Assembly: GCF_009914755.1 (NCBI RefSeq)
Contig: NC_060931.1
Origin: the human T2T-CHM13v2.0 reference genome, Homo sapiens
Reading direction: 5' to 3' (one strand)
DNA: 64,000 nt
Every line of letters begins with the position of its first letter. The first letter of the stretch is position 1. The translations under genes were made by a program, and so were the position numbers. This document shows, piece by piece, positions 26,619 through 31,327 of the stretch. The notes under the pieces are model-generated. The model saw only the letters and a program-made list of their open reading frames with translations, was not told the DNA's origin and did no database searches.

Positions 26619-29600
26619 CTAAATTAAAACATTTTTAAGTTTCTATTATTAGCAATACTATGCTATCTTACATAAAATGTACATTAAATCAATCACTAAT
26701 ATGGTTAAACCACAATCAACCACTTTATGGGCATTTATGAAATATATTATTACCATTAAAGAGGAATTTAAAATAGTTAAATGGTTGAATATAAATGAGC
26801 AAGCTGTACGAACTTACAGATAACTATATATAACACAGGTGCAGAATAAATCCTGTGTCAATATGAATGACACACATCATTTACTTACAAAAATATTGTG
26901 GAACTATCTTTTTTTTTAAATTGATTTCTTTAAAAACCATCGTATCTAATCAGACTTCTTTGCTTTTATTGTTAATGCTATTACCCACTGCTCTAGGCAA
27001 CACTGAAGAGGGAATAATCAATCTTAAGCTCTGGGCATTTGATTCATACAAATTAAATTCTGCAAACTATAATTTATAAATATCTTATTGACCTGCTCAT
27101 GAAAAACTATTGAAAATTTTAATGCAAATATTTCAAAGCAAATTTAATAGTATCCTAAACTGAGTTAAGTAATCTTCACTTTATATAAATAAGGAAAATC
27201 TTGTGGGTAATTCAGGGCATACTGCATTATCGTAGTACTACCCTTCCTTCACCGCATCATATACCTTCCTATTAAAGCTACTACTTTTTCAACTGGTAAC
27301 AAAAATTCTCTCTCATTTTTCTTTATCTCTTGCTTGTACTTCACTCACTTGAATTTAACTTGCTATTGTTTTTTCTAAAAGTCCAATTTAAAAATGCATG
27401 CACGAGAGATTTCTGTAAGTATGTATTTTTAAGCACAAAAAGTTTGTGTTATATTTATTTGATATTCATATCTAGTGTAAAAATCTGTTAAATAGAGCAC
27501 AGCAATAAAGGTGTTCATGTTGCAATGCTTCTGGTATAAATCTGGTCAGTTATATTAATTTTACAAAAAAAAATACAAAGTTTCATGACTTCTGATTATT
27601 TACTTCCATCTCCAGCCACATGTCTCAAAAATAGGTGGAACTGCTCACATTGGGGATTGAGTGTCTAGGGCCCTGCAAGTATGTCATTGTTAGTGCATAA
27701 ATTGCTCTTCTCCGCTAAAGAAACAATCCAGACAAAATATATCTAAGCCTATGTAGTCATACTAAGTGTGCATTATAAAATAGACCAAATTGCACACTTT
27801 CTAAAACTTACCTATGGTCAGTAGAGAGACATATACCTCTTAAAATAATTACAGAAAGGGCAACATTTGAAAAACCTAAACCAAAATATAAAATGTGTGA
27901 GTCAATAGCTGCTAAAATCATTATGTTGTTTTGGTCTTAACATGATAATATAGAAGTGTATCTTCATATCGATTTCAATGACAGTTTTATTTATCTCAGT
28001 TTTTTCCTTCTGAGATTTACAATGTTTTTTTTATGGGAGTAACTGAGTAATTATGCAGATAGAGTGAAACACTGTTACATTTTATAGTCTCTATATTGCT
28101 TCTGCCTATAAATGTGACTGATCACACTGACCATGTACAGTGAAAAAATAACCCCCTCATTTTTCTTTCTTCTTGTTCTACATTACTTATAAAATACAAG
28201 GCAAATACTATCTTCCAAAAAATGTTTTATTAGTGTAAAATTGAAGAGTATTTAAAAGTCGAAGGGAATAAATAATCAAGGCAGCTTGTTCCCTAAATAT
28301 TAGTGTGACTTTGGCCTGTCAGATTATATTGTAATTCTGTCCATAATTTTGAGATATTTTTCTTTCTTATATGCCCTTACTAATTTTCAAGATCTCTGCA
28401 AATATGAAGCTCACCAAACACGAAAGAAACTAATGAAGGTCATTCCAAGAGTAAGAGGCTTTATATACTTTGTCTAAGAGAAAATGCTATATTTTAAGAA
28501 TGCTGATGCTCTGCTAATGTTGCTAAATAGTACGGCTCACCCCTCTGAAATGCAAAGCTTAAAGCTAACATCTATTGTAGAATAAAACCAAAAATGTGAT
28601 TCCTATAATTTTTTTTTTGACCTTGAATGAATTTAGAAATCTAAAGGAGGATAAAGAAGCAGATCTTCCCTAGACTTACCAGCCCTTCTGAGAAGGGTAA
28701 GGGTAGCACAAAGCTCGGGAACATGGGGTAGTCTCCAAGCAACTAATTAGAAATTGAAAAGCAATCTGAGCATGTACATTGCTGTTTAAATAATGACAAT
28801 TTAAAACTTCAGAGAGCACCCAAGTCATTATAGCCATGACCCCCAAAGTTTGTGCAATCAGTGAATCACAGGGCCCCTGCTGGTTTCCTGTCAAACGATC
28901 AAAGCAGGAAATATGAAAACCACTCTGAAGAACCACTAAATCAATTAACTGTTTACTTTTTACCCAAGCTTCCTCAAGATGCCAACTTTTGTCACCTTTG
29001 TCAAAAAAAAAATTCAATTTAACTTGACACCCTTTTCTAACATCTGAGACCTCTGCATTGCAATAGCAAGTGATATTAAAAAGGTAATGCTTTCCTAACT
29101 CCCTTTTAAGCAACTACAAAGTCATGCTACATTAGTAACATACATCTTCCCCAGTTAAAAAAAAAAAAAAAAGGGACTAACAATCACTAACTAAATGGGC
29201 AGTTATGTTGTTCCTGTGTTCCATAATGCATCTTTCCATGAACAATGAAAGAAGAGAGGCCGCGTTAGTCATCGGTCCATCCACAGCAGCACGTTTTCTG
29301 CTCTGCTTTGTTAATTACAGGATCAGCTTTCAATAAATCTCGAATAACAAGCTGCATGTGCTCAGCAGGGCAATGGAAAGCCCCCTCTTACGCTACACAA
29401 AGCTCAGCAAGAATGATGCTCTTTGTCTATTTCTCCAAAAATGAACTCCCTCCTAACACAAAAGAAAAGGTTTCCTACTGGGGCAAGGAAGAGATAAATT
29501 GTAATAGGTCAACGTTGGCTAAAATTAAGTGCATGATGAATTATGTGCATAGGAATCTTTAAGTAGGGATGTCCACTGTTTTCAGAAGAAGCGAAGGTAA

Positions 29601-29650: not shown

Positions 29651-29719
29651 CATCGAATTTTTCTGGGACAACACAGGTGTCATCATAAAACTGCCTGGGG
29701 CCCTTTTCAAACATACAGC
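29651..29719 (-). CDS. ETV1: ETV1 coding exon (exon 11; 69 nt; GCMFEKGPRQFYDDTCVVPEKFD)
   Basis: Acceptor TTCATCCACAG|GCTGT, donor GATG|GTAGGT; translation matches ETV1. Confidence 0.96.
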
Positions 29720-29814
29720 CTGTGGATGAAAAAGGAATACATTTATTCATGATAGAAATGAAGCTCACAAACACTTAAAATATAACCATTTAACATAAAA
29801 ATTGTGATAGAAAA

Positions 29815-29990
29815 TGACTCTGCCACCACCTTTCAGTTCCTTGAGCCCTGGACACATTATTTAACCTCTGTGCCTCAGTTTCCTCATCTATTAAATGGGA
29901 TGACAGTAACACCACTTATCATGTTATAGGGTTGCTGTAGTTTAGAGTGATGCCTAGTACACAGTGAAATATAAAAGTTAGTTATTTACA
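29815..29990 (+). mobile_element. MIR
   Basis: Core ttatttaacctctgtgcctcagtttcctcatctattaaatggga. Confidence 0.8.
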
Positions 29991-31258
29991 TTGTTAACTC
30001 AAGCCAGAGCTCACCTAAACATTGGCAAGGATTTATAACGTATCGTCTCCTTTTTTAGATTCATCTAAATTTTATTGTTCAATGAAAAAGTGAGAAAGCA
30101 AGGTGAATTACTGGTATTCACATTATATTATTAGTCTGATGCTCTGAGACAGATTTATTTTATCCTCTTACTTTCTTGTAAAAATATTTAGATGGGTTAA
30201 CCTTCCTGTACTCAATTAGCAAGATAAGAGGAAAAAAAAAGTTTCCCTTTTTTTTTTTTTTTTTTTTGCTGTAAGGTAAGTCCACAGAAAAAAATGCAAA
30301 ATAAATCAACAGCTTTTCATAATAATGTCCTCTCTCAAATATCCTTCACTGTGAACTTTCGTTGTTGCTATCTGTGATTACCAGGAATAAATTTCATAGA
30401 GTTTACTTTTATTTCTCAAATGTATTGGTCTTTATGGTGGGTATATAATACTAACAACAGAAGCAACAATAATTACATTGCATTTGTGCAAAACTTTTAA
30501 TTTCAAATATTTTACATTTACCATCTCATACTACCCTTTAAAATTCTACTAATATCATTTACACAAAATAACCAATATTAGACCTAGCCTAAAAGAATGC
30601 ATCCAAGTCAATCCTATTAAAGAGATGTAGAGTGTTTAGGTTAGGAACCATGCACATATTTCAGAAATCCTTTATTGAGGATTATATCCAGACGAAATCA
30701 TTTTTACCATTACTTTTTAGGTATCAAAGTCCTTTACAGGCAAAGCTTTCCTACCACGGTTACCACAAGCCTGTCTATGAGAAAACTCTTTCTCTAGGCC
30801 TCCTATGTGAAATCTCATTCATATAAATTATTTGTCCAAAAATATAAAATCCAGAACATTTAAAGGTGAAAACCTTTAAATCGATGGCATTTTACTCCAA
30901 AACTATGACTAGGTCTGTAAAAGCAAAACCAAATATTCCTCAAAGATACATTTCAGTAGTAGTAAAGTGGGCTAATCTATAAAGCATATGTTCTATTTTA
31001 AAAGGATGTGGTTGTTGGCAAAAAAGAACACAGAAATCCACTTTTCAGTTGTTTCTACGCATATGACTCATGTTAACAACAAGATACCACTACTTGAAAC
31101 ATCTTCTTTTTACTTTGGAGATAGTCTTAAAACAATTGCTTAGGGAACATAAATGATTTTTCCCAAATAATATAATGATTAATTAAATGACGTCATATTT
31201 GGGATGTCTGATTATTCTGAACGGTATTTACACGGAATTTCAGTGGTGGACAACTTAA

Positions 31259-31327
31259 CTTCTGTTCTGCTGGGATGAGCCAGGAAGCCTTCTTGCCTCA
31301 TATAAATGGAGTGGCAGCTAGGCACTT
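31259..31327 (-). CDS. ETV1: ETV1 coding exon (exon 10; 69 nt; EVPSCHSIYMRQEGFLAHPSRTEG) with non-canonical donor
   Basis: Acceptor TTTCCTCTTTCAG|AAGTGCCT; translation matches ETV1. The frame requires the exon to end GAAG, followed by intronic TTAAGT. Confidence 0.9.

What the first reader, a model, noticed from the sequence alone, without database searches (positions are those of the whole stretch)
31225..31327. Non-canonical 5' splice site (AAG|TTAAGT; TT-AG intron) on ETV1 exon 10
Seen: the exon ends ...AGA ACA GAA G followed by TTAAGTTG, and the next exon begins CACAG|GC TGT ATG. The ETV1 peptide as I know it (RTEGCMFEK) needs GAA G|GC. The intron must therefore start TT, or equivalently run GT...CA. 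Cutting at the only adjacent GT (GAA|GTTAAGT) gives a 68-nt exon and a frameshift before the ETS domain. Apart from +1, the site matches the U1 consensus AG|GTAAGT perfectly. Known: GTTAAGT donors are the class read by shifted U1 pairing. Inference: this is a deliberately weak, regulated donor with several possible outcomes: TT use (full length), GT use (frameshift/NMD), in-frame skipping (-23 aa), or a weak downstream donor at 31232 (CGT|GTAAAT) that adds 27 nt in frame (VKLSTTEIPC). It may already be listed in surveys of non-canonical junctions.
Basis: partly seen in the sequence, partly recalled or inferred. Interest (0 to 1): 0.8.

Follow-up and report, generated by a model that had tools for sequence, protein, structure and literature searches.

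The report
Known TT-AG intron in human ETV1
The intron after ETV1 exon 10 really does begin with TT instead of the near-universal GT, but this rare splice junction is already published, tested in a reporter and annotated, so it is a real curiosity and not a discovery.

Summary
On the minus strand, ETV1 exon 10 (31259-31327) ends ...ACAGAAG and is followed by TTAAGTTG. The next exon starts after CACAG with GCTGTATG. Only the annotated 69-nt exon keeps the frame open. Of the 7 introns between the window's coding parts, 6 are GT-AG and this one is TT-AG.

It is already known. Parada et al. [quoted passage not shown] Their table lists it in hg19 as TTAG, U2-like, with 19 cDNAs, 10 ESTs and reads in 13 tissues. 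Erkelenz et al. 2018 (PMC6280755) moved the same site, aAG TTAAGTtg, into a reporter and saw splicing only at +1, before the TT.

I found no support for its idea of a deliberately weak, regulated donor with several outcomes.

One small addition: the homologous phase-1 glycine junctions of the two human paralogues are canonical, GAAG|GTAAGG on chr3 and ATGG|GTAAGG on chr17. Among the three human genes, the TT is therefore specific to ETV1.

Novelty: already known. Interest is low.

The parts
31259..31327 (-). ETV1 exon 10 of 14. It is 69 nt, phase 1 at both ends, and encodes (E)VPSCHSIYMRQEGFLAHPSRTE plus the first G of a Gly codon.
   Evidence: The frame is confirmed by the chr3 paralogue's VPNCQSSYMR.
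31251..31261 (-). Non-canonical 5' splice site aAG|TTAAGTtg. T is at +1 (31258) and T at +2 (31257). A second GT lies at +5/+6 (31254-31253). An overlapping GT lies at -1/+1 (31259-31258).
   Evidence: The same 11-mer was tested in a reporter by Erkelenz 2018.
29720..31258 (-). Intron 10, 1539 nt, with TT...AG ends. It is U2-type: no U12 donor or branch-site motif, and 17 of the 25 bases before the final AG (25 nt ending in the C and A of CAG) are pyrimidines.
   Evidence: Parada 2014 classifies it U2_GTAG-like with score 86.1.
29651..29719 (-). ETV1 exon 11, 69 nt. It starts GC TGT ATG and supplies the last two bases of the Gly codon split by the intron.
   Evidence: Its peptide finds the chr3 and chr17 paralogues.
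31230..31233 (-). Downstream GT dinucleotides. GT at 31231-31230 (CGT|GTAAAT) would add 27 nt in frame. GT at 31233-31232 would add 25 nt out of frame. I found no evidence that either is used.
   Evidence: Neither is in the hub's RefSeq table.

Best explanation
This is a genuine intron of the major (U2-type) spliceosome whose 5' end is UU instead of GU. It is constitutive, and it has already been described and annotated.

Likely mechanism, step by step:
1. Inferred from published reporter work on this very sequence: U1 snRNP is recruited through the AG at -2/-1 and UAAGU at +2 to +6. This is a consensus donor with a single mismatch at +1. The overlapping GU at -1/+1 and exonic enhancers probably help. 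The same duplex can be described as the shifted register of a GUUAAGU site.
2. Shown in a reporter: cleavage occurs between G(-1) and U(+1), not before the G. According to Erkelenz et al., this accuracy depends on a second GU at +5/+6 and on sub-optimal U1 complementarity. The window's site has both: GT at 31254-31253 and mismatches at -3, +7 and +8.
3. The intron is ligated to the ordinary CACAG acceptor. This restores the GGC glycine codon and the frame into the ETS domain.

How the catalytic centre tolerates U at +1 is not known; Erkelenz et al. say so themselves.
For: Sequence and frame.

Parada 2014, PMC4176328:
- I read passages only, not the whole text. [quoted passage not shown]
- Supplementary table row: hg19 chr7:13949325-13950863, minus strand, TTAG, type U2_GTAG, score 86.1. 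Read support is 119 mixture reads, 29 GM12878 reads, 19 cDNAs, 10 ESTs and 361 reads in 13 tissues, with many ENST ids.
- The row is also in the sheet of U2/U12-like junctions that have at least 1:20 coverage relative to the main variant.

Erkelenz 2018, PMC6280755:
- I read the abstract, section 6 and the first part of the Discussion.
- ETV1 site aAG TTAAGTtg 'exclusively activated +1'.
- TT ranks second only to GC among non-canonical donors.
- All high-confidence TT sites contain a GT.

U2-type features: no U12 motifs, a pyrimidine-rich tract, and a yUnAy match with its A at -40.

Paralogues: both flanking exons are coding in the frames that the 69-nt exon joins.
Against: No tool here gives transcripts, so use of the junction rests on the two papers and on the RefSeq model supplied by the hub.

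The reporter result is in a foreign context (HeLa, SRSF7 sites upstream). The same paper shows that context can move the cut to -1. It reports that Roca et al. 2012 saw only -1 use for the related FANCC TT site.

In the native gene, TT-AG and GT-CA give the same mRNA. The lariat's 5' end has not been shown in anything I read.

Supplemental Fig. S2 of Erkelenz et al., which holds the ETV1 gel, was not seen. File 1 of Parada's supplements was not searchable.
Confidence: 0.86

Rival explanations
1. Regulated weak donor. The TT is kept so that ETV1 output can be tuned. A variable share of transcripts would use the GT at -1 (frameshift, NMD), skip exon 10 (-23 aa) or use the +27 donor, depending on tissue.
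For: All three alternatives exist in the sequence with the stated frame effects. Erkelenz et al. show that enhancers and neighbouring U1 sites can shift TT sites between -1 and +1, and that non-canonical donors depend strongly on enhancers. Parada et al. report that 76% of U2/U12-like non-canonical sites take part in alternative splicing. The paralogues use plain GT, so the TT is not forced by the protein.
Against: Parada et al. single out ETV1 as constitutive. The ETV1 site gave only +1 in the reporter. The hub's RefSeq table shows no alternative end for this exon. No paper found describes such isoforms.
Confidence: 0.1
2. GT...CA intron. The spliceosome cuts before the G (GAA|GUUAAGU), as at shifted-register donors, and uses CA|G as the acceptor one base upstream of the AG.
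For: The mRNA cannot tell this apart from TT-AG, because G31259 equals G29720. GUUAAGU is the shifted-register class by my recall of Roca and Krainer 2009, which is not held here. Erkelenz cites -1 use of the FANCC TT site.
Against: In a reporter with a different acceptor the ETV1 site was cut at +1 only. The native acceptor is a good CACAG preceded by a pyrimidine tract. A CA acceptor would be a second and rarer violation. Parada's pipeline classes the junction as TTAG, U2-like.
Confidence: 0.03
3. Artefact. A base is missing in the assembly (true sequence GAAG|GTTAAG) or the transcript is misaligned.
For: None found.
Against: hg19 and T2T-CHM13 both give TT. Erkelenz cloned the natural 11-mer with TT. 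The junction is supported by 19 cDNAs, 10 ESTs and RNA-seq reads in 13 tissues.
Confidence: 0.01

Closest known systems
FBXO9 natural TT-AG junction (Parada 2014; Erkelenz 2018)
   Same: The donor is aAG|TTAAGT.. with a GT at -1/+1 and a GT at +5/+6. It is classed TTAG, U2_GTAG-like with score 86.6, against 86.1 for ETV1, and is annotated in GENCODE.
   Different: FBXO9 continues ...AT at +7/+8, so it is more complementary to U1. In the reporter it was spliced at both -1 and +1, while ETV1 (...tg) was spliced at +1 only.
FANCC c.165+1G>T pathogenic TT donor (Hartmann 2010; Roca 2012, as cited by Erkelenz 2018)
   Same: The core is G|TTAAGT. Some correct +1 splicing occurs and is the basis of a milder phenotype.
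   Different: It is a mutation of a normal GT site and is inefficient. One reporter showed only -1 use. ETV1's TT is the reference state and is constitutive.
Shifted-register GUUAAGU 5' splice sites (Roca and Krainer 2009; not held here, details recalled)
   Same: It has the same heptamer, and the same U1 duplex is possible.
   Different: Those sites are cut before the G. ETV1 must keep the G in the exon to stay in frame, and it was cut after the G in the reporter.
FGFR GA-AG donors (Brackenridge 2003, as cited)
   Same: A conserved, efficiently used U2-type donor with a non-GT dinucleotide.
   Different: The GA site depends on a GT 6 nt upstream. ETV1 has no GT in the 30 exon bases upstream other than the one at -1.
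Homologous junctions of the human paralogues on chr3 and chr17 (ETV5 and ETV4 by my own naming)
   Same: The exon-intron position is the same: phase 1, inside a Gly codon, between the VPxCxSxYM exon and the DDxCVVPE exon. The chr3 copy even shares the exon end GAAG.
   Different: Both have canonical donors, GAAG|GTAAGG and ATGG|GTAAGG, and AG acceptors. Their exon lengths are 60 and 75 nt, against 69 nt in ETV1.

Membership tests
U2-type intron with non-canonical TT-AG ends | The donor matches the U1/U2-type consensus apart from the dinucleotide | tested here: met
   AAG|TTAAGT against consensus AG|GTAAGT: identical at -2 to +6 except +1. Parada's score is 86.1, type U2_GTAG.
U2-type intron with non-canonical TT-AG ends | AG acceptor with a pyrimidine tract and a plausible branch site | tested here: met
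   ...TATTCCTTTTTCATCCACAG|G. 17 of the 25 bases before the final AG are pyrimidines. There is a TTCAT match with its A at -40.
U2-type intron with non-canonical TT-AG ends | The junction is used in real transcripts | not testable with these tools
   Literature only: 19 cDNAs, 10 ESTs and reads in 13 tissues, plus the RefSeq model from the hub.
U12-type (minor spliceosome) intron | Donor RTATCCT and branch site TCCTTRAY near the 3' end (motifs recalled) | tested here: not met
   No match to either motif anywhere in the 1539-nt intron.
Shifted-register GUUAAGU 5' splice sites | The heptamer GUUAAGU is present | tested here: met
   GAA GTTAAGT at 31259-31253.
Shifted-register GUUAAGU 5' splice sites | Cleavage occurs immediately before the G of GUUAAGU | tested here: not met
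   That cut gives a 68-nt exon and a frameshift. The reporter shows +1 only.
Accurately spliced TT donors (rule of Erkelenz 2018) | A second GT at +5/+6 | tested here: met
   GT at 31254-31253.
Accurately spliced TT donors (rule of Erkelenz 2018) | Sub-optimal U1 complementarity outside the core | tested here: met
   Positions -3 (a), +7 (t) and +8 (g) are written as non-complementary by Erkelenz and are the same bases in the window.

The most novel reading that the evidence does not exclude
Among the three human paralogues the TT is specific to ETV1; the other two keep GT at the same codon. It could be a derived state held by selection as a throttle. Under this reading, cell-type differences in enhancer proteins or U1/U6 handling would shift a fraction of transcripts to the -1 GT. 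Those transcripts would be frameshifted and degraded by NMD, setting the dose of an oncogenic and neuronal transcription factor after transcription.
Probability: 0.08. Interest if true: 0.45.

Novelty: already known. Interest (0 to 1): 0.12.

Why it matters
ETV1 is a proto-oncogene and a neuronal fate factor. Every full-length ETV1 mRNA has to pass through a donor that standard rules call dead.

In practice this junction breaks aligners and assemblers that allow only GT-AG, GC-AG and AT-AC. Parada et al. show Cufflinks failing to join ETV1 for this reason.

It is also one of very few natural test cases for how the spliceosome tolerates U at +1, which bears on reading +1G>T disease variants. 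All of this is already in print, so the finding adds no new knowledge. The one addition here is the paralogue comparison.

Tried and rejected
- Paralogue search with the 22-aa exon 10 peptide found only the window itself, 1 match. The exon 11 peptide found 3 matches: the window itself, chr3 and chr17.
- The regex for the chr3 downstream exon in L005 found nothing. I located that exon through L003 instead.
- MAFFT aligned the chr17 donor out of register, so I read that junction by hand.
- U12-type intron: rejected, no motifs.
- Assembly error: rejected.
- Literature searches:
  - 'ETV1' + 'non-canonical splice': 8 papers, 2 relevant.
  - 'TT-AG' + 'splice': 10 papers, only Parada bears on ETV1.
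  - 'ETV1' + 'FBXO9' + 'splice': 4 papers, 1 relevant.
  - 'ETV1' + 'noncanonical splice': 1 paper.
  - 'FANCC' + 'TT splice': 32 papers, listing only.
  - The search on shifted base-pairing was seen as a listing only.
- PMC2882926 has TT-AG only in a count table and does not mention ETV1.
- PMC9311317 gave only a general sentence on shifted and bulge registers.
- Roca and Krainer 2009 and Roca 2012 are not held.
- Donor conservation in other vertebrates could not be tested, because no other eukaryotic genome is held. Parada's files that I could search have no mouse column: 0 hits for 'mouse'.
- Their intron length is 1538 against 1539 here. I cannot tell whether that is a coordinate convention or a 1-nt intronic difference.
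- The string TTAG occurs 40 times in Parada's file. Junctions are repeated across sheets, so the number of distinct junctions is smaller.

Full report
**What is in the sequence.** ETV1 lies on the minus strand. Read on that strand, exon 10 of 14 (31259-31327, 69 nt) begins after ...CCTCTTTCAG with AAGTGCCTAGC and ends ...CCCAGCAGAACAGAAG. The intron then starts TTAAGTTGTCCACC. Exon 11 (29651-29719, also 69 nt) begins GCTGTATGTTTGAAAAG after ...TTTTTCATCCACAG.

Joining the eight annotated coding parts of the window gives one frame that is open for 398 codons up to the terminal stop. It reads ...FLAHPSRTEGCMFEKGPRQFYDDTCVVPE... across this junction. The other two frames carry 9 and 27 stops.

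The same call prints every junction. All 8 acceptors are AG. Of the 7 donors, 6 are GT and the exon 10 donor is TT.

G31259 and G29720 are the same base, so the junction can be written in two ways only, TT...AG or GT...CA. No GT-AG placement yields the mRNA.

One search tested each one.
- Cutting at the overlapping GT (GAA|GTTAAGT) makes a 68-nt exon. The frame shifts after residue 211 of the in-window translation and runs into a stop after a new tail of 51 residues. That stop lies 188 nt upstream of the last exon junction. By the usual 50-55-nt rule (established knowledge) this predicts nonsense-mediated decay.
- The GT at 31231-31230 (CGT|GTAAAT) adds 27 nt in frame and replaces the glycine with VKLSTTEIPC.
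- The GT two bases upstream of that one (31233-31232) adds 25 nt and is out of frame.
- Skipping exon 10 or exon 11 is in frame (-23 residues each).
- No other GT lies in the 30 exon bases upstream of the donor.

**It is already published.** A full-text search for 'ETV1' with 'non-canonical splice' gave 8 papers, two of them directly on this site.

Parada et al. 2014 (Nucleic Acids Res, PMC4176328): I read passages and the supplementary table, not the whole text.
- They use it as their example of a junction that TopHat cannot align and that therefore stops Cufflinks from assembling one transcript.
- Their supplementary table lists the junction in hg19 at chr7:13949325-13950863, minus strand, dinucleotides TTAG, type U2_GTAG-like, score 86.1.
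- Its support is 119 reads in the tissue mixture, 29 in GM12878, 19 human cDNAs, 10 ESTs and 361 reads across 13 of 16 tissues, with a long list of ENST identifiers.
- The row is repeated in the sheet of U2/U12-like junctions that reach at least 1:20 of the main variant.
- The intron length there is 1538 against 1539 in the window. I cannot say whether that is coordinate convention or a 1-nt intronic difference.

**Reporter test of this very sequence.** Erkelenz et al. 2018 (Genome Res, PMC6280755): I read the abstract, the section 'Accuracy of noncanonical TT splicing' and the first part of the Discussion.
- They confirmed this with the two natural sites from Parada's list. The FBXO9 site aAG TTAAGTAT was used at both -1 and +1. 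[quoted passage not shown]
- That 11-mer is identical to window 31261-31251 on the minus strand. It has the GT at +5/+6 (31254-31253) and non-complementary bases at -3, +7 and +8.
- From competition reporters and 2.4 billion gapped reads they rank TT as the best-used non-canonical dinucleotide after GC.
- They count 121 TT donors among 341,386 Ensembl introns with AG acceptors.
- They note that all their high-confidence TT sites contain a GT.
- They state that it is unclear why U at +1 is tolerated better than GA or GG.
- I did not see their Supplemental Fig. S2, which holds the ETV1 data.

**Type of intron.** The 1539-nt intron has no match to the U12-type donor or branch-site motifs (motifs recalled). 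It ends in a pyrimidine-rich tract: 17 of the 25 bases before the final AG are pyrimidines. It has a yUnAy match with its A at -40. Together with Parada's classification, this makes it an intron of the major spliceosome.

**Mechanism.** The most likely course is as follows.
- U1 snRNP pairs with AG at -2/-1 and UAAGU at +2 to +6. This is the consensus duplex with a single central mismatch, and it is the same duplex as the 'shifted register' of a GUUAAGU site. This step is inference, resting on Erkelenz's complementarity notation and on the general account of alternative registers in PMC9311317.
- Later components fix the cut between G-1 and U+1. This is shown in a reporter, not in the native gene.
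- Ligation to the CACAG acceptor rebuilds the GGC codon.

The same paper warns that the surrounding sequence can move TT sites to -1, and that Roca et al. 2012 saw only -1 use of the FANCC TT site in another reporter. The native cut has therefore not been shown directly in anything I read. Roca and Krainer 2009 and Roca et al. 2012 are not held here; what I say of them beyond Erkelenz's citations is recalled.

**Paralogue comparison (the one addition made here).** The window's genome could be searched.
- The exon 10 peptide found only itself.
- The exon 11 peptide found three places: itself, one on contig 3 (E 0.037) and one on contig 17 (E 2.1). I take these to be ETV5 and ETV4. The names are my own recall; no tool gave them.
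- On contig 17 the upstream exon lies in the same locus and ends ...GGGGCCATGG|GTAAGGCAGCC. The next exon starts after ...CCTCCACAAG with GCTATGGCTATGAG.
- On contig 3 the upstream exon was found about 6.9 kb away by tblastn: VPNCQSSYMR against VPSCHSIYMR, E 0.009. It ends ...CAGCAGCCATGAAG|GTAAGGAACC. The next exon starts after ...TTCTCTTTCAG with GTTTTTCATATG.
- In all three genes the intron splits a glycine codon after its first G.
- The alignment places ETV1 GAAG-TTAAGT directly opposite the contig 3 GAAG-GTAAGG. MAFFT put the contig 17 donor out of register, so I read that junction by hand.

So the position and phase are ancestral to the family, both paralogues are canonical GT-AG, and among the human genes the T at +1 is specific to ETV1. 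The comparison also shows that both flanking exons code in the frames that only a 69-nt exon 10 can join. Whether TT is old within vertebrate ETV1 could not be tested, because no other eukaryotic genome is held. The searchable Parada files have no mouse column.

Its central inference was a deliberately weak, regulated donor with several outcomes. What I could see gives it no support:
- The junction is called constitutive.
- The site was accurate in the reporter.
- The hub's RefSeq table gives no alternative end for the exon.
- No paper in four ETV1- or TT-directed searches describes such isoforms.

A small NMD-masked leak through the -1 GT remains possible and untested.

**Scores.** The feature is real, rare and instructive, but already known, annotated and experimentally examined. 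Interest as a new finding is low (0.12).

Noticed in passing
window 31259-31327 and 29651-29719: Exons 10 and 11 are both exactly 69 nt and both phase 1 to phase 1. Skipping either one removes 23 residues in frame. I recall a 454-residue ETV1 isoform (477 - 23) but could not check which exon it lacks.
   Followed up: partly
window 27812-27875: The hub's table lists a 64-nt exon of other ETV1 transcripts inside the intron between exons 11 and 12. Its length is not a multiple of three, so including it would shift the frame ahead of the ETS domain (a poison-exon candidate). I did not examine it.
   Followed up: no
L005 (G000:C3:188873200-188883199) and L004 (G000:C17:44380860-44383919): The exons homologous to ETV1 exon 10 are 60 nt (chr3) and 75 nt (chr17), against 69 nt in ETV1. 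The intron that follows is about 6.9 kb on chr3, about 150 nt on chr17 and 1.5 kb in ETV1.
   Followed up: partly
window 31262-31300, minus strand: The exon just upstream of the TT donor is purine-rich (GGCAAGAAGGC and CAGCAGAACAGAAG). This looks like GAR-type exonic enhancer sequence, which Erkelenz et al. say non-canonical donors need. It was judged by eye only; no enhancer scoring tool was available.
   Followed up: no
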